IMG/VR virus record: IMGVR_UViG_3300026299_000009
Coordinates: 1-34,593 of that record
DNA: 34,593 nt
From: a virus
Taxonomy: Duplodnaviria > Caudoviricetes
Reading direction: 5' to 3' (one strand)
Shown here: piece after piece, positions 7,401-32,766 of the stretch
Layout: the number at the start of each line of letters is the position of its first letter
Numbering within the stretch: the first letter of the stretch is position 1
The notes under the pieces: model-generated
Seen by the model: the letters and a program-made list of their open reading frames with translations, nothing else
What the model was told of the DNA's origin: nothing
The model's database searches: none
Position numbers and translations under genes: made by a program

Positions 7401-9008
7401 ATGTACATTACCAAAATCCGGCTAAAGAACGGCTACAAACGCTTCCACGACCTTACAATTGATTTAGGCGAAAAACCCGCTCGCATAGTTGCTTTGGTGG
7501 GGCCGAACGGCTGCGGCAAGAGTAGCGTGCTGGATGGCCTCTTGTATCACGCAAGTGCTCTTGGGAAAATTGGAAGAAATGCAAATCGCGATCCCAACTA
7601 CCATTCAATGACTGATAATAAAGCCACATGGCAGGATATCGATATTCAATTTACTGTTGGAAACTTCGTTCAGGTTCGGAAATCAAGAGAAGCCTCTGGA
7701 AGCGAAAATACTATTTTTTCATTCCGCAGCCCATATCGCTACAATAGCGAGCTCAAAGTCAAAGAAACTCTTGCCGTACCAAGAATTAGCTTAAATTCTT
7801 ACGGCGCAGGCGACGCATCCAGTTTAGATGCCAAGATGGAGGAAAACTATCGCCGCCTTTATGCTGCTTACAATCGATATCGCGATGACAATGACCTCAG
7901 GCCGAGCGAGGCTAAAAACAAAATTATAGGCGACCTGAATGCCTCAATCAAGAACTGTATTGATTTGGAAATTTCCAGCCTAGGAAACGTCGAGGGTAAT
8001 CAAGGGACAATTTACTTCAAGAAACCGGGGCACCCAAAGGAATTTGAATTTGATGTTCTGTCCTCCGGGGAGAAAGAAGTGGTCGACATTTTGCTCGACC
8101 TCTACCTGCGAAAGGATGACTATGACGACTCGATTTTCCTAATCGACGAACCTGAGCTACATATCAACACGGCGATACAAGGCAACCTGCTCGTCGAAAT
8201 CGATAGATTGGTCGGACCTAACTGCCAGATTTGGCTGACAACCCACAGTATCGGCTTTCTCAGGGCGTTGCAGACCCAAATGTCCGATAAATGCCAAGTG
8301 ATCCATTTCCGCTCCGAGTATAATTTGGCATCGGAAGCGCGCACTTTAACTCCGGTCAAAGTCAGTCCAGGCACTTGGCGTGAGCTGTTTTCCGTCGCGT
8401 TAGACGACTTGGCGCTTCTGGTCACTCCTTCAACCATCATCTACTGTGAGGGGAGGGCTGAACCCGGCGCGGGTGGCCGAGAAAGAGGATTGGACGCGCA
8501 GGTTTTCAACAACATCTTTGCGCAGTCCCACCCCGAGGCATTTTTCATTTCGAGCGGCGGGAACACCGAGCCCGACCAGCGCAGTGAGATTGCAATAGCA
8601 ATCCTCGGGAAGGTATTCCCCACTGTGGAGATATTGGTGCTCAAGGATCGGGACATGGCGTCAGGAAAGGAAACGAACGAACATGATCGCCGAGTTTATT
8701 TAAGAACCAATCCTAAGAATCATAGACTTCTTGAACGCTGGGAGATCGAAAATTACCTCTTCGACAAAGAAGTTCTGCAAGCTTACTGCACCGGTGAGGG
8801 TTTACACTTTGATGAACAGGCTTATGACAAGTTCGTGACCAGCGTCGTCAATCAAGACCTTAAGGGTGAAGTGCAGCGGATAAAGAGCTTTTGCGGTATC
8901 AAAAACAGTATCAGCCCTGATGTTTTCAAAATCGCCTTATCCAAGTATATGAGCTCTGGAATGTCCGTGGTCCGTGAGCTTGAAAGCTGTATATTTACTC
9001 CGACGTGA
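7401..9008 (+). CDS. ABC-type ATPase fused to TOPRIM-like domain (OLD/PARIS-like putative defence nuclease)
   Basis: Walker A GPNGCGKS, signature LSSGEK, Walker B FLIDEPE, H-loop TTHS, C-terminal IIYCEG / DRD / EIENYL; AT-richer and on opposite strand to flanks. Confidence 0.85.
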   Translation: MYITKIRLKNGYKRFHDLTIDLGEKPARIVALVGPNGCGKSSVLDGLLYHASALGKIGRNANRDPNYHSMTDNKATWQDIDIQFTVGNFVQVRKSREASGSENTIFSFRSPYRYNSELKVKETLAVPRISLNSYGAGDASSLDAKMEENYRRLYAAYNRYRDDNDLRPSEAKNKIIGDLNASIKNCIDLEISSLGNVEGNQGTIYFKKPGHPKEFEFDVLSSGEKEVVDILLDLYLRKDDYDDSIFLIDEPELHINTAIQGNLLVEIDRLVGPNCQIWLTTHSIGFLRALQTQMSDKCQVIHFRSEYNLASEARTLTPVKVSPGTWRELFSVALDDLALLVTPSTIIYCEGRAEPGAGGRERGLDAQVFNNIFAQSHPEAFFISSGGNTEPDQRSEIAIAILGKVFPTVEILVLKDRDMASGKETNEHDRRVYLRTNPKNHRLLERWEIENYLFDKEVLQAYCTGEGLHFDEQAYDKFVTSVVNQDLKGEVQRIKSFCGIKNSISPDVFKIALSKYMSSGMSVVRELESCIFTPT

Positions 9009-9135: not shown

Positions 9136-9666
9136 TCACCCTCCCGCCCGCGCCTCAAGGGCTTCGCGGACGATATCGAGGATGTTGGTGCGGTCGGTGT
9201 CGGAGAGGCCGAGGAAGGGCCGGGCCGGGATGTCGCCCCAGGGCAGGTGGTGGAAATAGTCGCGGGAGGCGGGACCGCCGTCTTTCTGCCTGGTCCGGCC
9301 CATGCGGGCGCCGAACTGGCCCTGTTTCGCGCCGAACTGCATGACCGCCGCCTGCAGGGCATTCGATCCGACCGAGACGAAGTCGGGGCCGGACCGGAAG
9401 TTGATGCCCCGTCGCATGTCTCCCTCCAGCCAGAGCGGATAGGGGCCGGGTTTCCCGCCCTTCTTCTCATAGGCTTTCAGGGTCGAGGCGGCGCGCGGGG
9501 CGAAGGGGGATCCGTCCGGGCTCTGGCCGATCAGCATCCGGTCCTGCGTGGATTGCACCAGCGCATCGCCGATCTGGCGCATCACCTGACTGAGATCAGA
9601 CAGCAGCGCCTGCAGCCCGGTCAGCGCCTGCTCGACCTCCGCATCCTTTATTTCAATCGTGAACAT
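9136..9666 (-). CDS. virion morphogenesis protein, Mu gpG-like
   Basis: start MFTIEI; GQSPDGSPFAP, VGSNALQAAVMQFG, IPARPFLGLS motifs. Confidence 0.92.
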   Translation of the reverse strand: MFTIEIKDAEVEQALTGLQALLSDLSQVMRQIGDALVQSTQDRMLIGQSPDGSPFAPRAASTLKAYEKKGGKPGPYPLWLEGDMRRGINFRSGPDFVSVGSNALQAAVMQFGAKQGQFGARMGRTRQKDGGPASRDYFHHLPWGDIPARPFLGLSDTDRTNILDIVREALEARAGG

Positions 9667-9675
9667 GACTATATT
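9647..9675 (+). promoter_or_regulatory. candidate sigma70 promoter for the tRNA-like RNA
   Basis: TATATT at 9670-9675, 6 nt before the closing stem; weak -35 TTTATT at 9647-9652 with 17-bp spacing. Confidence 0.5.
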
Positions 9676-9681
9676 TGCCTT

Positions 9682-9765
9682 TCTGAGGTCGTGTGCCCGA
9701 TCGGTAAGGGGGGTGTGCCGTAACCCGGCAGATCGATGTTGGTTCGACCCCAACCCGACCTCAGA
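9682..9765 (+). ncRNA. tRNA-like cloverleaf RNA (non-canonical anticodon arm, no CCA)
   Basis: 10-bp closing stem TCTGAGGTCG/CGACCTCAGA; D arm CCC-GATCGGTAA-GGG; arm GGT-G-TGCCG-TAACC-CGGCA-G-ATC; T arm GTTGG-TTCGACC-CCAAC. Confidence 0.72.
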
Positions 9766-11038
9766 GCCTTCCTTCCACCAGGATCGCGCCCCGAGTGACA
9801 TCGGCCCGAAGATCCACTAGCTCAACCATGCGGCCGGTCTGCATGGTGTTGAAGGCAGCCTTTGCTTTCTTCACCCAGGTATTGATCTCGATCACCATTT
9901 TCGCGGTGCGACCGGGAACATCATAGATCAGCGAGAACACGGGCTCGCCGGAGACATGATCCAGCAGCACGGCGCGCGGCCTCCCGAGCCGCCCCGGCAT
10001 GCCCTTGTACCAGTCCAGATCCAGCGGCGCGGCCTTGGGCTGGCGCGGCACCGCGCGGGTCGAGGCCACCGTCACATGATCCGTGCCCCGGAAGGTGTGC
10101 TGCACATTGAGATCGGTCACCACGATCTCGGCGGTCTCCGGTGTCACGCCATGCCGGATCGCCGCATCGACCCAGCCCGGCTTCAGCGCGCCGATCACCA
10201 TATGGCGGCCCTGGACAAATTGCCCGAGCGCCTGATCGACGAAGGCACCGAAGGCGCGGTCGAGATCCGCAGTCTTGCCCGCAGGCCAGCTTTCGAACAG
10301 CCGCGCGCCAATCGGCGCCGGGAGGCGCGGCAGCTTGTCCTTCAGCGTCAGGATGGTCTCGGCGGTGCTGGCGCCCGGCGCGTAATCCCAGCCCTTCTGC
10401 AGCCCCTTCGGCAGGCCGGTGCGCGGATCGGGCCGGTCCCAGTCCGGTGGCAGTTGCTTGCCCGGATCGCCGCCGACCCGGCGGATCCCGGCTTCGGTGT
10501 GCGCGCCGAACACCCGGCAGCCGCAGCCCCAGCCGTTCGGCGGGAAGAACCTCGCCCAGAACGGATGATTCGGCGGCAGCGCGATGCCGTCCAGCGCCAG
10601 GTGATGCAGCCGGGGATGTTCAGCGCCGGAATGGCGATAGACCCAGTATTTGTAGTTTCCGGCCAGCAGCTGCGCCCGCCGCCCCGCCGCATAGCTGGTC
10701 AGCAGGTTGGTCTGGTAGATCACCCGCGTGCGCCAGGCCTCGCCCTTCGCACTGCCTTCGCCGGTCCAGCCGGTCCAGCCATGCCGGGCCACGATCTGGC
10801 GGAAATCCTTGCGGAAGACCTCGAGCGCGGTGCCCTGCGAGATCGCCTTGTCGACCGCCGCCGCCAGATCGGCCAGCAGATCCGCCTTCAGCGCCCCGGC
10901 AACCACGAAGGCGCGATCATGCTGGTTATGGCGCAGGTCATCCCAGGCGCCGGTGGGCAGCAGATTGCCCAGCCGCAGCCGGAAGGCCGCCTGCTGTTCG
11001 GCAAAGAGCTGGTGGAAGCCGAAGCCGACCTCAGCCAT
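9761..11038 (-). CDS. MuF head morphogenesis protein with C-terminal extension (putative PBECR-like nuclease)
   Basis: RAFVVAG, RVIYQTN, PPNGWGCGCRV, GWDYAPG MuF motifs, followed by about 190 further residues. Confidence 0.9.
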   Translation of the reverse strand: MAEVGFGFHQLFAEQQAAFRLRLGNLLPTGAWDDLRHNQHDRAFVVAGALKADLLADLAAAVDKAISQGTALEVFRKDFRQIVARHGWTGWTGEGSAKGEAWRTRVIYQTNLLTSYAAGRRAQLLAGNYKYWVYRHSGAEHPRLHHLALDGIALPPNHPFWARFFPPNGWGCGCRVFGAHTEAGIRRVGGDPGKQLPPDWDRPDPRTGLPKGLQKGWDYAPGASTAETILTLKDKLPRLPAPIGARLFESWPAGKTADLDRAFGAFVDQALGQFVQGRHMVIGALKPGWVDAAIRHGVTPETAEIVVTDLNVQHTFRGTDHVTVASTRAVPRQPKAAPLDLDWYKGMPGRLGRPRAVLLDHVSGEPVFSLIYDVPGRTAKMVIEINTWVKKAKAAFNTMQTGRMVELVDLRADVTRGAILVEGRL

Positions 11039-12701
11039 CGCCACGCCCGTCCGCATCCAGACGCCCGGCCAGATCGGCGGTCAGGAAGGCCTCCGCCATC
11101 AGCTCCGCCATGGCCTGCGCATCAAGGCCGGGGAAGCCCGCGAGCAGCATCTGCCGGAACTCCCCGAGGCTGCCGGCGGCATTCATCATCAGCTCGATCT
11201 GGCCGATCATCCCGTCGATCACCGGCGGGGCGGCGCGGGCCAGTTGATCAGCCAGATCGGCGGCCGGATCGCCCGCTGCGCCGAGACCGCCAGAAATCGC
11301 CGCTGAGGGGCCTCGGGCCTGCAGGGCGGTCTCCGTGCCCGGCAGGCCCTGACCCCGTTTAATTTCGCCGGAAACCCGTTTAGATTTTGAAGCCCGGTCC
11401 TCTCCCTCCCCCAAGGGTGCCGATCCGGCCAGATCAGCGGTGGAAACCGGCGCTGCCACCCTCAGAAGCCGGGCGCCGGGCTTGGGTTCCGAGAAGCCGA
11501 AGCGGGCGCGGATCTCACCCTCCTCGATCTCCATCCCCAGACGGACCATCTTGTCGACCGCCGTGGCCAGCGCGCTCAGATCCTCGGTCTTCGGGCGGCC
11601 GATCCGGATCCTTGGATACCGTTTCTGCGGCCCGAACTCGAGCTGGATCCACGGCCGGATCACATCGCGGTTGATGATCGCCGAAAGCGCGCTGGCATCG
11701 GCGCCCTCGATATCCTCCTGCACCAGCCGGTGCTCGCGCCCGACCGCATGGCCCCCGGCGATGGCATCGGTGGTCGCGGTCTGCCCCAGCACCGCCTTCG
11801 AGATCTGCTGGTCGAGGTGATTGACCCGCTTCTCGTAAAGATCGCCCGACTGGCCGATGGATTTCGACTCGATGAAGTCGATCGACATCGTGTCGGGGAT
11901 CAGCGCCGCGCAATCCCCGGCGATATTGGCCACCGCCCGGAACAGCGTGGCCTTGTCCTGCTCGCTGGCCCCCGGCTGCCATTTGCCCACCCGCAGCGGC
12001 TGGCCATAGGTCTGGGTGAAGATCGCCCAGTCCCGCCCGGTGAAGGCCTTGAACATCCAGCCCCACATCGCAACCCGCGCCAGACCGGCGCGCAGCAGGA
12101 TGCCGGATTTGGCCGGGATATCGGCAAAGACGAAGCGGAAGGCAGGCAGCGGCACCTCGCGCCCGCTGTCATCCAGCATCAGCGGCCGGGCCAGATCGTG
12201 ACGGGCAAACCGGATGATCCGGGGATCGCGCCAGGCCAGCTCCTTCGGCAGATACTGCCCCTCGGAATGATCCCAGATGATCGCCGTGGCGGAATAGCCC
12301 TTCGACAGGCAGTCGAGGATATGGAACAGCTCCTGCTGCAGCTCGTCGCGCTTGACCCAGTCGCGGACCATATCCGCCAGCTTCCCGTCATGGGCATCGT
12401 CCGAGGCCGCCTCGACCGTGATGTCGAGCTGCGAGACCGACCGCTTCCGGGTGCCGATCACACCCAGATAATGCGGGTCGCGTTCCTCGATCACCTCGGC
12501 CAGTTCCATATAGCGCACCGGATCGCCATGATCCGCCGCGCGCAGGATCTGCGCCAGCCGCAGCGGGTTCAGCCCGTCACCCGGATAGGAGGTCAGCGGC
12601 GAGCGCGCGCCCGAAAGGCTGGGCGCCCCGACATCGCGGGTCAGGCTGGCGCGATCCACCTCATAGCCCCAGCGGTCGGTCAGGATCAGATTGCGGGCCA
12701 T
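11031..12701 (-). CDS. portal protein, Mu gp29-like (DUF935)
   Basis: EERDPHYLGVIGTRK, YGQPLRVGK, ISKAVLGQT motifs; start MARNL. Confidence 0.93.
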   Translation of the reverse strand: MARNLILTDRWGYEVDRASLTRDVGAPSLSGARSPLTSYPGDGLNPLRLAQILRAADHGDPVRYMELAEVIEERDPHYLGVIGTRKRSVSQLDITVEAASDDAHDGKLADMVRDWVKRDELQQELFHILDCLSKGYSATAIIWDHSEGQYLPKELAWRDPRIIRFARHDLARPLMLDDSGREVPLPAFRFVFADIPAKSGILLRAGLARVAMWGWMFKAFTGRDWAIFTQTYGQPLRVGKWQPGASEQDKATLFRAVANIAGDCAALIPDTMSIDFIESKSIGQSGDLYEKRVNHLDQQISKAVLGQTATTDAIAGGHAVGREHRLVQEDIEGADASALSAIINRDVIRPWIQLEFGPQKRYPRIRIGRPKTEDLSALATAVDKMVRLGMEIEEGEIRARFGFSEPKPGARLLRVAAPVSTADLAGSAPLGEGEDRASKSKRVSGEIKRGQGLPGTETALQARGPSAAISGGLGAAGDPAADLADQLARAAPPVIDGMIGQIELMMNAAGSLGEFRQMLLAGFPGLDAQAMAELMAEAFLTADLAGRLDADGRGDG

Positions 12702-29873: not shown

Positions 29874-30953
29874 CTAACTCTTTGACGGAAGAGCCTCTAC
29901 ATGCGCCCGCAACAGCTTGCCAATGTACTCGCCGAGTGGGACTGGTACCGCATTGCCTATCAGGCGTCCGATCTTAGCGAAGCTCGGCCGTTTCCCAAGA
30001 GGAACAAATGAGTAATCGACGGGAAAGCCTTGGAGCATCGCCGCCTCCCGGAGCGTTATCGCCCGGTCCTGTTCGGGATGCCCGAAGCGACCGTTTCCGT
30101 AGCCGAAGCACTGCGTCGTGATGGTAGGACTCGGTTCATCCCACACCATGCGGCCATATACGGCCGGAAACGTTGCGCCCGTACTCCTGCGGTGACAGGC
30201 AGCCCGTAGCTGCTCCGGCCAGTCGCGCCAAGTGCCCCCCGGCTTCGAAGCCCGAATGCGCTTCATGTTGGTAGCGCTCAACTTGCTAGCCACGTGAAGC
30301 GGGTCGTCGGGGTCGGCTTCCCCCGCAGCAATTCGGCGAAGTGAGCCGATCGTCTGCCTGACGGTGGTCGGTTGACGACCTGATTCGTCTGGTTCCAATG
30401 ATATTGGTCCCAGTTTCGATCCGATCAATACGAGCCGCTTTCTTGTCTGTGGAAGACCGACTTGCCGCACATTGATTACCCTGTAGTCCACGTAGTATCC
30501 GGCGAGTGCAGCTAAGAACTCTTGAAAGACCGGTTGGTCAGCCAAGGGGGGGACGTTCTCCATGGTGACGAGGTCCGGCTGCACCGCGTGTACCAACTCC
30601 CCGAATCGTCGTACAAGTCGCCAGTCGTCCTGCTTACCTCGGCCCTTGCGAGTCCCGTCCCCTTGCCGTACGGCGGAGCGCGAATAGGTCGAAAACGGCT
30701 GGCACGGCGCACACCCGGCCATCAACGTCACTTCTCCGCCAGCCATGGCCTTCGCGACCTCGGCAGCGTCAAGACTGTCGACGTCGGCCCTGAGAAACTT
30801 GGCCGCATTGTTGGCAGCGAAAGGATGTTCACATGCTGGGTCAATATCGACGCCGAGGCGCACATTGATGCCTGCGCGCTCCAAACCATGCGTAAGCCCC
30901 CCCGCTCCGCAAAAAAGGTCAACCGCAGCTATTGTCTTAACATTAGTCGTCAT
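29874..30953 (-). CDS. DNA (cytosine-5) methyltransferase
   Basis: DLFCGAGG, APCQPFS, ENVP, PQTRKR, LREAAMLQGFP, IGNAVP motifs. Confidence 0.95.
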   Translation of the reverse strand: MTTNVKTIAAVDLFCGAGGLTHGLERAGINVRLGVDIDPACEHPFAANNAAKFLRADVDSLDAAEVAKAMAGGEVTLMAGCAPCQPFSTYSRSAVRQGDGTRKGRGKQDDWRLVRRFGELVHAVQPDLVTMENVPPLADQPVFQEFLAALAGYYVDYRVINVRQVGLPQTRKRLVLIGSKLGPISLEPDESGRQPTTVRQTIGSLRRIAAGEADPDDPLHVASKLSATNMKRIRASKPGGTWRDWPEQLRAACHRRSTGATFPAVYGRMVWDEPSPTITTQCFGYGNGRFGHPEQDRAITLREAAMLQGFPVDYSFVPLGKRPSFAKIGRLIGNAVPVPLGEYIGKLLRAHVEALPSKS

Positions 30954-31663
30954 GGCGCCGTCTGTTGAAGGAAGCTTCTTCCATCTATATATAGATCGAA
31001 AGACGCGACGACTTCCTTCATATAGGCAATCACAGGATCGCGCAACTCGGCAAGGCGGCTACTGGGGATGTGACGCGCACCGTCCAAGAAGGACTCGTTC
31101 CCGTGCGCCAGCCGGTTGCGCTTGTGCCGAAGGTACTTCATCGGGGGCATATGGTCCTCAAACATGTTTTCACATGCGGCGATGCGGACCGGGTCACTGA
31201 TAGCGAGAGGGCAGGCCAAAGCGGTCGCGAGTTCGACCACTTCTTCGTGCGACCAGTTCCCTGTCTTGCGGCGGATGCTCAACTTCGACAGGGCGGCCCG
31301 GTCGATTGCCTCTTGCACCAAGCCGACGAAACGGGTCTCGGCGTCATGGACCGACAGGTCTCGCGACAGGTTCACGCGTCCCAGCGCCCATTCGCGCAGT
31401 AGTCCGTCGCACCATTCCTTGGGTGAGTGGACGGCCGCAGCTATTGCCACCTCCTCCAGAACCTTCGCCATCACAGCCTCGACAACGTTGTAGAGGTGGA
31501 CAAGGAAGCCACTCTTGAGAATGTTGATCGGCTCGGAGTCTACGGGTGCCGTGTGGGTGCCGGTCCCACGACCAACGGCAGAAGCCTCCAGCTCCGTTAT
31601 GAACTGCAGATGAGTCTCAATTTCAACCATCCTCTCCGAAAGGATTACGCCAAATTCGCTCAC
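30950..31663 (-). CDS. HEPN-domain protein (MAE_28990/MAE_18760-like)
   Basis: ILKSGFLVHLYNVVE and RNRLAHG (RxxxxH) motifs. Confidence 0.88.
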   Translation of the reverse strand: MSEFGVILSERMVEIETHLQFITELEASAVGRGTGTHTAPVDSEPINILKSGFLVHLYNVVEAVMAKVLEEVAIAAAVHSPKEWCDGLLREWALGRVNLSRDLSVHDAETRFVGLVQEAIDRAALSKLSIRRKTGNWSHEEVVELATALACPLAISDPVRIAACENMFEDHMPPMKYLRHKRNRLAHGNESFLDGARHIPSSRLAELRDPVIAYMKEVVASFDLYIDGRSFLQQTAP

Positions 31664-32766
31664 TGCATGAGCCTCTCATAAACAAAACGAATCCTTGCGA
31701 GGAGCTTGGACTTTACATTTGCGGCGTCAGAAGTCGTGACGTCCCCAAATTCCCTCTCATCTACCCATCCAGCAACGTCTGCGGGCAACGTAGTCAGCTG
31801 ACCTCGGTCTCTCAATGCCAACGCGGTACCCACCGCAATTGCCTCGAAGCGAACCCGCGGTATCTGCTTTCCGGTAGCCGTTTTTCGGAAGCCAAACGGG
31901 AAAAGGCGGTCGACCTCGACCAGCATGGCATCGAACTCCCGCCGAAGGCGTGTTAGATATCCGGGGTCATTCCCTGCTAGGCCATTGGCCTCATCTACGA
32001 AGGCCCAAATGTACTCTCGGGGGCGATCCCTCCATCCGGGAAGATCAAAGATCCCATTTTCGCGGGTGAGCTTTTCCAAGTATGTGAAGAAGCGAACGAC
32101 GAGTTCCTCGCGCTCCCTCTCGTTAACCAGATTTGTCGAGACTGGTGTCATGCTGACGAAGCGCTGATCCGTCGAACAGCTCACCACCAGATCCATGAAC
32201 GGGCCAGGCAGGGAGCCTCTCCGGATCTCCGCCTCGTTCAGGTGTGTTCCACCGGTATTGATACGATTGAACATCTCTGTTCGAGCGGCCTCATTAACAA
32301 GGTTATCAAGTATGATGCCGCGGATGGATCGGCTGGAGAGCTTTCTTTGTCGGCTCCTATCTAAGTCAGTGACGCGGAAACCATTCAGTTCGGGTAGCTG
32401 TTGCAGCTTTTGAAGCTGTAAGTCACCGTCGAGAAAACGCACCATTGTTCGGAGCCGCTGCGACCCGTCCACAATTTCAAGTCGACCGTCATCCGCCTGC
32501 CAAAGGAATAAGAAAGGAATTGGAAGCCCCATTAGCAAAGACTCAACAAACCTTGACTGCTTGTCCTCGGGCCAAACCAACTCCCGCTGATATGGAGGAA
32601 CGTAATACTCCTCTTGGCGGACCTTCTCCGCCAAGAATTCAACTGTATACTCGGTGACTAAGTATTTGATAGCCATTTCCAACTTGGCGATCGCCGCTTC
32701 GCCTGCGACTTTCTGCAATTCAGTCGGAGCTATGCGCCTACTTGCCCGCGCCATGCCATCCACCAT
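31660..32766 (-). CDS. DUF262 (GmrSD N-terminal, ParB/Srx fold) protein
   Basis: VPPYQRELVW, IVDGSQRL, FNRINTGG motifs. Confidence 0.92.
   Translation of the reverse strand: MVDGMARASRRIAPTELQKVAGEAAIAKLEMAIKYLVTEYTVEFLAEKVRQEEYYVPPYQRELVWPEDKQSRFVESLLMGLPIPFLFLWQADDGRLEIVDGSQRLRTMVRFLDGDLQLQKLQQLPELNGFRVTDLDRSRQRKLSSRSIRGIILDNLVNEAARTEMFNRINTGGTHLNEAEIRRGSLPGPFMDLVVSCSTDQRFVSMTPVSTNLVNEREREELVVRFFTYLEKLTRENGIFDLPGWRDRPREYIWAFVDEANGLAGNDPGYLTRLRREFDAMLVEVDRLFPFGFRKTATGKQIPRVRFEAIAVGTALALRDRGQLTTLPADVAGWVDEREFGDVTTSDAANVKSKLLARIRFVYERLMQ

What the first reader, a model, noticed from the sequence alone, without database searches (positions are those of the whole stretch)
9647..9765. tRNA-mimic RNA antisense to the end of a MuF-nuclease gene: candidate toxin/RNA-antitoxin system
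Seen: the 94-nt gap between MuF and gpG folds on the + strand as a cloverleaf: 10-bp closing stem (9682-9691 with 9756-9765, overlapping the MuF stop), D arm with the conserved GG, canonical T arm GTTGG-TTCGACC-CCAAC, but an elongated 9-position anticodon arm with a G-G mismatch, a 5-nt loop TAACC and no CCA. TATATT sits 6 nt upstream. The elbow is intact while decoding and acceptor features are not, which is not how random decay of a tRNA gene would be expected to look, and Mu-like phages do not use tRNA att sites. Known: MuF proteins carry polymorphic toxin tips, including BECR-fold RNases related to tRNA-cutting colicins D/E5, usually with a downstream immunity protein. Inference: this RNA takes the place of the immunity gene as a decoy or antitoxin (or is a cofactor) for the MuF tip. 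An alternative partner is the ATPase-TOPRIM gene about 0.7 kb away. I do not recall a description of this pairing but cannot check the literature.
Basis: partly seen in the sequence, partly recalled or inferred. Interest (0 to 1): 0.92.

Follow-up and report, generated by a model that had tools for sequence, protein, structure and literature searches.

The report
RNA antidotes for phage capsid toxins
Mu-like phages whose head protein MuF ends in a predicted RNA-cutting domain carry, right behind that gene on the opposite strand, a conserved folded sequence (tRNA-shaped here) that is swapped and lost together with the domain and likely makes an RNA that neutralises it, in place of the usual immunity protein.

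Summary
The cloverleaf at 9682-9765 (+) is real. Across 23 homologues, 17 of 22 pairs show compensatory change. The D-loop GG and T loop are kept; the anticodon-position loop is random, 3-6 nt, never 7. It is not a decoding tRNA or an att site.

It belongs to the MuF tip, a MuF_C/PBECR-type predicted RNase. In 114 non-redundant BECR-tip loci, 91 of 97 with an intact motif have a family RNA (6 more by eye), against 5 of 17 degenerate ones. No model hits behind 26 short, 5 ART or 6 peptidase MuFs. Each tip clade has its own RNA family (905 same-class vs 2 cross-class hits). One PBECR3-linked family shows a CAU anticodon-like loop. B3 and Pasteurella AFS-2018a have intact tip plus RNA; JBD18 and Mu have lost both. 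The ATPase-TOPRIM gene is swappable cargo, not the partner.

Best reading (0.6): an RNA decoy antitoxin for a virion-borne tRNase. Expression, toxicity and binding are untested. No description was found in 10 literature searches or in Rfam.

The parts
9682..9765 (+). tRNA-like non-coding RNA (predicted ends): long acceptor-like stem, D arm, variable middle hairpin, T arm
   Evidence: fold; covariation; model R1 72 bits; training member
9682..9691 (+). 5' strand of 10-bp closing stem (pairs with 9756-9765)
   Evidence: 7 of 8 counted pairs have both-side changes
9696..9710 (+). D arm, 3 bp, loop with conserved GG (9703-9704)
   Evidence: G23, G28 invariant; weakest helix, 83% paired, partly mis-registered in the MAFFT alignment
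9712..9734 (+). middle arm in the anticodon position; stem kept, loop not conserved
   Evidence: predicted loops 3-6 nt in 26 of 26, none 7 nt
9738..9754 (+). T arm with canonical GTTCRA loop
   Evidence: (G-T-T-C, A and closing C invariant in 23 of 23)
9756..9765 (+). 3' strand of closing stem, overlapping the MuF stop codon; no encoded CCA
   Evidence: (CCA right after the stem in 1 of 26)
9670..9675 (+). TAnnnT -10-like box of the predicted RNA promoter
   Evidence: 23 of 26 family members; 1 of 46 no-RNA loci vs 49 of 62 RNA loci at the same place; 2% random
9647..9652 (+). weak -35-like hexamer, 17 nt before the -10 box
   Evidence: sequence; below threshold; RC1 has a 5/6 match at the same place
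9761..11056 (-). long MuF (gpF) head protein, 431 aa; PF04233 at 64-182
9764..10294 (-). C-terminal tip (aa 255-431): MuF_C/PBECR-type predicted RNase with H320, R323, K341, N403, T407
   Evidence: (17 of 40 clade members hit PF18819 at E<=0.1; the window's own tip does not)
9136..9666 (-). gpG (virion morphogenesis, PF05069); its start region overlaps the RNA promoter
7401..9008 (+). AriAB-like ATPase-TOPRIM cargo gene in the gpG-gpI slot; NOT part of the system

Best explanation
The element is a conserved tRNA-shaped sequence that travels with the predicted RNase tip of the phage head protein MuF and likely yields a small RNA that binds and neutralises that tip as a decoy substrate, in place of an immunity protein. 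Shown here: the conserved fold and its strand; its fixed place behind MuF; a -10-like box tied to the RNA rather than to gpG; one RNA family per tip clade; joint swapping between phage backbones; absence of the RNA where the tip's catalytic-looking helix has decayed or no BECR tip exists. Inferred: (1) the tip is a BECR RNase acting on tRNA; (2) the RNA is made from a host sigma-70 promoter in the lysogen, during assembly and as soon as the DNA enters a new cell; (3) the tip grips the tRNA elbow and acceptor helix of the decoy, which lacks a 7-nt anticodon loop and a CCA end and so ties up the enzyme; (4) MuF is packed in the head and delivered with the DNA, so the tip would harm cells that destroy or lack the phage genome, while an RNA antidote works without translation, which a tRNase would block.
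For: Covariation (for three families). R1 hits lie only at MuF stops of class-0 tips: 26 of 27 hits in 160 sources, 3 of them non-training; the other is a real tRNA at 21 bits. Seven more out of sample at E<4e-5. Intact motif 91/97 RNA-positive by model or BLAST vs degenerate 5/17, Fisher p 1.6e-8. Independent pairs 5.8 same way: 0 opposite (p 0.03-0.06) among BECR tips, and 11.3: 0 (p about 0.001) over all MuF types. Near-identical backbones differ in both traits together: L036/L052 (N-terminus 98%, gpG 95%, gap 2 vs 143 nt), L049/L137, L029/L040, L037/L054; B3 vs JBD18; Mu lacks both, and Iyer 2017 calls the Mu domain inactive. Direction of loss: no intact tip without RNA among 97 once 6 by-eye calls are accepted, but RNA survives behind broken tips (L061 frameshift, L084 helix deleted) - the toxin-dies-first order. 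ART and peptidase tips have 53-91 aa ORFs in the same slot (11 of 11), as Jamet 2017 reports for MuF toxins. Tip model pLDDT 93; best structural neighbours are BECR RNases, BrnT Z 4.9, colicin D tRNase 4.2, CdiA NC101 4.1. PBECR3-linked RNAs show a YYCAWAM loop in 13 of 29, i.e. another part of tRNA mimicked.
Against: No expression evidence: RNA-labelled runs are low-depth contigs, and the RcapMu element is not among the 422 sRNAs of Grull 2017. No toxicity or binding data. Fold matches are weak (all Z<5, Foldseek nothing), and the window's own tip hits no Pfam. The motif rules were written after seeing the alignments, so the 2x2 is not blind. In the out-of-sample set the rule is too narrow: 8 of 21 loci fail it yet show an RNA (mostly by eye), including a KRPAR subfamily (5 loci, 4 without the His), and it fires falsely on gapless L208. 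8 of the 21 RNA calls there are by eye only. One short MuF (L125) has a 96-nt gap that looks structured by eye. The ORFs behind ART and peptidase tips were not shown to be immunity genes, and GC-rich gaps give ORFs of up to 56 aa by chance. Iyer 2017 argued that PBECRs may spare host tRNA. No terminator explains the 3' end.
Confidence: 0.6

Rival explanations
1. The RNA is the tip's cargo or cofactor: MuF binds (and perhaps trims) it, packs it into the head and delivers it as a tRNA decoy against host anticodon nucleases or as part of an active RNP; the tip is not toxic to the phage's own host.
For: Joint swapping, joint loss and clade-specific folds fit equally well. Iyer 2017 proposed RNA binding or non-tRNA targets for PBECR domains. 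RNA survives with His-less KRPAR tips. A phage tRNA neutralising PARIS is recalled, not from a call.
Against: Deleting 90 nt is a one-step event and should then often precede decay of the protein; no clear intact tip without RNA was seen in 97 + 21 loci, while RNA behind broken tips was. Other toxin tips use the same slot for small ORFs.
Confidence: 0.22
2. Convergent type I-like antisense: the RNA pairs with the late mRNA across the MuF-gpG junction and lowers MuF (or gpG) expression; the tRNA shape only stabilises or processes it.
For: Opposite strand, own promoter, overlap of the MuF stop and the edge of the gpG ribosome site; loss with a dead toxin also fits.
Against: Antisense needs no conserved loops, yet elbow nucleotides are invariant and folds are tip-specific. 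Overlap with MuF is only 5 nt here and nil in several homologues. The RNA is kept when moved 200-1000 nt from the MuF stop (L033, L110, L194) or 300-1400 nt from gpG (L133, L086). ART and peptidase toxins in the same operon position have none.
Confidence: 0.09
3. The structure acts in cis on the minus-strand late mRNA (processing or autoregulatory site cut by the tip) and is not a separate RNA.
For: The minus strand folds almost as stably (z -2.0); T4 RegB, a BECR RNase, cuts phage mRNA (Iyer 2017).
Against: G-U 31 vs A-C 9 cells; tRNA loop motifs read only on the + strand; a -10 box travels with the element.
Confidence: 0.04
4. Partner is the neighbouring ATPase-TOPRIM (PARIS-like) gene, or the element is a decayed or odd decoding tRNA.
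For: AriAB is the best PADLOC match (E 3e-33), on the same strand 0.7 kb away. ARAGORN of 33 homologues tRNAs; two pass the Rfam tRNA cut-off.
Against: AriAB-like gene only in the window's own contig among 181 loci (flanks 1.5-5 kb); L002 and L005 keep the RNA with other cargo. The 8 ARAGORN calls give 3 undetermined and 4 different isotypes; no 7-nt loop in 26; compensatory changes show selection, not decay.
Confidence: 0.03

Closest known systems
MuF polymorphic toxins with protein immunity (Jamet 2017, PMC5576092; passages read)
   Same: MuF N-terminus with swappable C-terminal tips in the head module; a dedicated element right after the toxin gene
   Different: The element is a non-coding RNA on the opposite strand with its own promoter. 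The paper left the proteobacterial tips (Ct_MAD) unexplained and mentions no such RNA in the passages found ('RNA' 3 hits, 'intergenic' 0).
PBECR / MuF-C domains (Iyer 2017, PMC5512222; section 19 and passages read)
   Same: Tip family, His in the N-terminal helix plus S/T in a late strand; Mu gp30 inactive
   Different: No partner RNA described ('ncRNA' 0 hits); here RNAs pair with MuF_C-like, PBECR3, PBECR3-like and probably PBECR2 tips.
Type III toxin-antitoxin systems ToxIN/CptIN/TenpIN (recalled, no call)
   Same: Proposed logic: RNA antitoxin binds an RNase toxin directly
   Different: No tandem repeats, not co-transcribed upstream of the toxin, tRNA mimic not pseudoknot repeat, BECR not MazF-like fold, toxin fused to a virion protein.
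DUF3800-I to -XI RNA motifs (Weinberg 2017, PMC5737381; passages read, supplement unreadable)
   Same: Several unrelated RNA folds each tied to one protein family, often on the other strand, function unknown
   Different: Different protein and folds; no Rfam DUF3800 hit in the slot among 32 loci scanned.
allo-tRNAs near toxin-antitoxin genes (Mukai 2017, PMC5389517; passages read)
   Same: tRNA-Sec-like long acceptor stem; some inactive in translation and near TA genes
   Different: Those keep an anticodon loop and a long variable arm with 8/4 or 9/3 branches; this has a 5-bp T stem, no anticodon loop, and one fixed partner gene.
Bacterial Y RNA YrlA; T5 tRNA-Lys against PARIS (both recalled, no call)
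   Same: tRNA elbow mimicry; phage RNA that offsets a tRNA nuclease
   Different: No Ro60 gene among the window ORFs scanned and no Rfam YrlA hit; the T5 RNA is a decoding tRNA that replaces the target of a host enzyme.

Membership tests
Decoding tRNA | 5-bp stem with 7-nt anticodon loop, conserved isotype | tested here: not met
   0 of 26 with 7-nt loop; 8 of 33 called, inconsistent isotypes
Decoding tRNA | D-loop GG and T-loop GTTCRA elbow | tested here: met
Decoding tRNA | 7/5 acceptor branch, 2-nt linker, CCA | tested here: not met
   8-10 bp stem plus bulge, 4-nt linker, CCA in 1 of 26; CCA could be added later, not testable
MuF polymorphic toxin system | MuF domain with swappable C-terminal tip in the head module | tested here: met
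   (66 class changes on the N-terminal tree)
MuF polymorphic toxin system | small immunity ORF right after the toxin | tested here: not met
   no ORF inside the window's 94-nt gap
MuF polymorphic toxin system | tip is toxic | not testable with these tools
   needs expression in a naive host
PBECR / MuF_C RNase | profile match to PF18819 or PBECR1-5 | tested here: inconclusive
   window tip no hit; 17 of 40 clade members hit MuF_C at E<=0.1, best 3.6e-8; Mu gp30 hits the clade profile at E 4e-21
PBECR / MuF_C RNase | helix plus 4-5 strand meander | tested here: met
   model pLDDT 93; BECR RNases head the structural list but at Z<5
PBECR / MuF_C RNase | His in N-terminal helix and S/T in late strand | tested here: met
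   H320 invariant in 24 of 24; T407; definition
Type III toxin-antitoxin | antitoxin as tandem repeats co-transcribed upstream of the toxin | tested here: not met
   single copy, downstream, opposite strand; features recalled
Type III toxin-antitoxin | RNA binds and inhibits the RNase | not testable with these tools
   needs pull-down and rescue
Type I (antisense) toxin-antitoxin | substantial complementarity to toxin mRNA, small hydrophobic toxin | tested here: inconclusive
   5-nt overlap with the MuF frame but full complementarity to the intercistronic mRNA; toxin is a 431-aa virion protein
PARIS (AriAB) partner RNA | co-occurrence with AriAB | tested here: not met
Any Rfam 15 family | score at or above gathering cut-off | tested here: not met
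   window below cut-off; in 32 other loci only two marginal tRNA matches in the slot

The most novel reading that the evidence does not exclude
Mu-like phages run a polymorphic toxin system in which immunity is RNA: each virion-delivered RNase tip is paired with its own structured decoy (whole tRNA elbow for MuF_C-type tips, CAU anticodon loop for PBECR3 tips, larger folds for others). Toxin and RNA are swapped as a cassette, the antidote works without translation right after injection, and the decoy's shape reveals the enzyme's target.
Probability: 0.55. Interest if true: 0.95.

Novelty: categorically new. Interest (0 to 1): 0.88.

Why it matters
Immunity to polymorphic toxins has been described as protein. 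An RNA in that role, for a toxin carried in the phage head, would be a new class, and would explain why proteobacterial MuF tips looked like orphans without immunity genes. The set is large: the class-0 tip profile alone finds 1156 clusters at 50% identity and 20 of 401 sampled Pseudomonadota genomes. There are at least four tip clades with distinct RNA folds. It makes the function of MuF, open since phage Mu, directly testable in cultured phages (B3, RC1, RcapMu, AFS-2018a). It also flags a source of false tRNA annotations. Even under the cargo/cofactor rival these are undescribed RNA-protein modules.

Tried and rejected
ARAGORN and Rfam on the window: no tRNA; tRNA-Sec below cut-off. Foldseek on whole MuF and on the tip: nothing at E<=0.001. 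Expression: one run search and one lay of 4 RNA-labelled runs gave only low-depth contigs of relatives spread over the region; they show neither presence nor absence of the RNA. Grull 2017 supplement (part 1 of 30 read, plus two term searches): RcapMu element not found; its 86-nt fold is not significant alone (z -0.4). The sRNA-Xcc1 hit in L062 lies in the cargo slot, not the MuF gap. One search used a mis-registered structure string and is void; the corrected count is. Automatic stem-boundary calling was noisy (47 of 96; 8 of 34 'displaced'), so the promoter claim rests and on the 1/46 vs 49/62 contrast. The L125 fold was cut off-register and is uninformative. R2 did not recover B3, L198, L199, L201-L204, L206 or L209 at their MuF stops; those remain by-eye. 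R1 also scores real tRNAs (Met, Arg, Lys, Gly, Pro, Gln) at 33-46 bits, so no parent isotype can be named. B3 gap has no other match in the phage collection; AFS gap none in E. coli genomes. The tree is the quick one; the careful search did not finish. Earlier-findings searches returned nothing. Rejected: att site or tRNA remnant (DDE-transposase phage, mid-morphogenesis position, covariation); AriAB partner; the -10 box as a by-product of the gpG ribosome-site spacer (1 of 46 no-RNA loci have it).

Full report
Setting. The window is a 34.6-kb Mu-like prophage contig: DDE transposase, Mu portal, terminase, MuF, gpG, gpI and tail tube genes on the minus strand. A 95%-identical MuF fragment lies in Gemmobacter caeni (L098), so the host is probably a rhodobacter. 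MuF is 9761-11056 (431 aa), gpG starts at 9666, and an AriAB-like ATPase-TOPRIM gene of low GC (about 50% vs 68%) sits between gpG and gpI.

Observation. Alone the fold is modest (z -2.2; opposite strand -2.0). ARAGORN finds nothing; Rfam gives tRNA-Sec at 26.6 bits against a cut-off of 47.

The RNA family. Close relatives keep the element with compensatory changes (L005) and altered middle loops (L002) while carrying different cargo between gpG and gpI. A pattern scan found 7 stretches, all at the end of the same MuF tip type. An unfitted MAFFT alignment of 23 homologues has 90% of cells paired against 75.5% in shuffles, 17 of 22 pairs with changes on both sides, and 36-53% for slid controls. 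Kin share changes, so the shuffle count is not a probability. G-U cells outnumber A-C cells 31 to 9. Invariant bases sit in the D loop, the T loop and the base of the closing stem. The middle arm keeps a stem but its predicted loop is 3-6 nt in 26 of 26 (often GNRA), and CCA follows in 1 of 26. ARAGORN of 33 homologues tRNAs, with three undetermined and four different isotypes. A TAnnnT box lies 0-12 nt upstream in 23 of 26. It is present near the gpG start in 49 of 62 RNA loci but 1 of 46 loci without RNA, and at 2% of random places. A strict sigma-70 scan finds nothing in the window because the -35 is weak, and no terminator.

The tip. Residues 255-431 have no Pfam hit themselves. 17 of 40 clade members hit MuF_C, and Mu gp30 matches the clade profile at E 4e-21. 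The model (pLDDT 93) is a helix plus meander sheet. Foldseek finds nothing. The wide structural search ranks BrnT (Z 4.9, rmsd 3.7, 75 aligned), colicin D tRNase (4.2, 3.9, 89) and CdiA NC101 (4.1, 3.6, 85) first, all weak. H320 is invariant in 24 of 24 close homologues, matching the His-plus-S/T site that Iyer 2017 defines for PBECR domains. RNase activity and a tRNA target are inferred.

What the RNA tracks. Two scans, each cut at its best 80 of 590 and 572 confirmed stretches, gave 160 MuF loci. Dropped before counting: the two copies of the window's own contig, duplicates with identical C-termini, 5 loci where MuF runs off the contig, L005/L011 (no N-terminus) and L041 (frameshift artefact). 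Tips fall into three BECR-like classes (0, the window's; 1, PBECR3-like; 2, PBECR3), ART-like, peptidase-like and short forms. Each BECR class has its own antisense RNA families: BLAST hits between gap regions join the same class 905 times and different classes twice, while tip class changes 66 times on the N-terminal tree of 153 rows (quick tree). Class 0 has the cloverleaf and a derived four-way form (covariation). Class 1 has two larger folds. Class 2 has a small junction whose first hairpin covaries and shows a YYCAWAM loop, like the CAU anticodon loop (likeness recalled), in 13 of 29. R1 hits 27 places in 160 sources: 26 at class-0 MuF stops (3 not in training) and one real tRNA at 21 bits.

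Joint loss. Among 114 BECR-tip loci, 97 keep the catalytic-looking motif: 91 have a family RNA by model or BLAST and the other 6 by eye. Of 17 degenerate tips, 12 have none and 5 keep it (Fisher p 1.6e-8 on model calls). Three of those 5 are single substitutions that may still be active; L061 and L084 are clearly broken. Independent pairs go 5.8: 0 (p 0.03-0.06) within BECR tips and 11.3: 0 (p about 0.001) over all types. The motif rules were written after seeing the alignments. Short MuFs: 0 model hits in 26; 17 of the 22 with gpG found have gaps of 11 nt or less; L125 has a 96-nt gap that looks structured by eye. ART (5 of 5) and peptidase (6 of 6) tips have no RNA and a 53-91 aa ORF in the slot, not shown to be immunity genes. 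Sister pairs make the point: L036/L052 share 98% of the N-terminus and 95% of gpG, yet one has a changed active-site strand and a 2-nt gap, the other an intact tip and the RNA. Among named phages, B3 and Pasteurella AFS-2018a have intact tips and an RNA (B3 by eye; AFS by R1, E 4e-5), while JBD18 and Mu lack the His and overlap gpG by 4 nt. RcapMu has a PBECR2 tip and a 92-nt gap with a -10 box and hairpins, by eye only. The RNA stays when insertions separate it from gpG (L086, L133) or from MuF (L033, L110).

Out-of-sample check. A search of 401 Pseudomonadota genomes found the class-0 tip in 20 (19 new; 21 distinct new loci). Eight have a model-supported RNA at the tip's stop (6 by R1, 2 by R2), 2 a weak R2 hit at the expected place (L194, displaced about 200 nt; L197), 8 an RNA by eye only, and 3 (L207 and L211 from one genome, L208) overlap gpG, lack the helix motif and score lowest of the full-length tips. 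Against my rule: 8 loci fail the regex yet have an RNA, including a KRPAR subfamily mostly without the His, and the regex fires falsely on L208. So the rule is too narrow, though no clearly intact tip lacked an RNA.

The ATPase-TOPRIM gene has no homologue in any of 181 loci except copies of the window's own contig and is not the partner.

Mechanism. Shown: fold, strand, position, promoter-like box, tip-specific families, joint swapping and loss. Inferred: expression, RNase activity, binding, virion delivery. I commit to a decoy antitoxin (0.6) because the RNA fills the slot that other toxin tips fill with small ORFs, mimics different parts of tRNA for different tips, and is lost after, not before, the enzyme decays. 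Cargo or cofactor (0.22) explains everything but that order. Antisense (0.09), a cis element on the late mRNA (0.04) and PARIS partner or odd tRNA (0.03) fit poorly.

Expression was not shown. Four RNA-labelled runs gave only low-depth contigs, and the RcapMu element was not found in the sRNA table of Grull 2017 (outline, supplement part 1 and term searches).

Novelty. Ten full-text searches of open PMC and bioRxiv found no report of RNAs behind MuF or PBECR genes. Read: Iyer 2017 (passages and section 19), Jamet 2017, the 2026 BECR preprint 10.64898/2026.08.28.747851, Mukai 2017, Weinberg 2017, Rfam 15 and the French Phage Network report (passages only). Subscription papers are not covered, and the Weinberg 2017 supplement could not be read; it may bear on whether any of these motifs was listed. 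Rfam scans of 32 loci found no family in the slot beyond two marginal tRNA matches. It works like a type III antitoxin but fails that family's layout, and sits in a MuF toxin locus without the immunity ORF. Verdict: real, wider than first proposed, mechanism likely but untested; interest 0.88.

Noticed in passing
window 7401-9008 (+): Fused ATPase-TOPRIM gene, best PADLOC match AriAB (PARIS, E 3e-33), GC about 50%, in the gpG-gpI slot. Relatives carry a 740-aa ORF (L002) or a weak HEPN-like ORF plus a methyltransferase (L005) there: a cargo hotspot.
   Followed up: partly
window 29874-32766 (-): Three-gene cluster: DUF262/GmrSD-N (NsnA, PD-T4-2_A-like), MAE_28990 HEPN and a C5 DNA methylase, beyond the repressor end; likely a defence island.
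   Followed up: partly
L062:2865-2945 (-) and other PBECR3 loci: Small junction RNA with a 5-bp hairpin and a CAU anticodon-like loop in 13 of 29; suggests the target of PBECR3 tips.
   Followed up: partly
L116:4664-4770 (-), L147, L053 and other class-1 loci: Two larger (about 105-130 nt) RNA families behind PBECR3-like tips, strongly conserved in sequence, not in Rfam.
   Followed up: partly
L060:4747-4838 (-) and alignment A7: In the derived four-way RNA, invariant CGG in the D-like loop is complementary to invariant CCG in the T-like loop: a possible kissing contact replacing the tRNA elbow.
   Followed up: no
L199, L201, L202, L203, L206: Tip subfamily with a KRPAR motif, mostly without the His, still followed by a four-way RNA (by eye); gpG not detected nearby.
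   Followed up: partly
L125, gap after MuF stop: Short MuF followed by a 96-nt gap with a -10-like box and a closing stem by eye; possibly an RNA left after the tip was deleted.
   Followed up: partly
L181:11525-11618 (RcapMu): PBECR2 tip with a 92-nt gap, TATATT box and hairpins on the opposite strand: a candidate fourth RNA type in a cultured prophage.
   Followed up: partly
L181:1132-1202 (+) (RcapMu): Type II hammerhead ribozyme (71.9 bits) in the early region.
   Followed up: no
L062:4636-4723 (-): sRNA-Xcc1 (RF02221) upstream of a small ORF and a 253-aa ORF in the gpG-gpI cargo slot.
   Followed up: partly
L009:2983-3081 (phage B3 ORF34): The annotated 32-aa hypothetical gene is the opposite strand of the candidate RNA and may be a false ORF.
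   Followed up: no
L008:3093-3278 (vB_RhkS_P1): Long MuF of an unassigned tip type followed by a 61-aa ORF, with no gpG found in the slot.
   Followed up: partly
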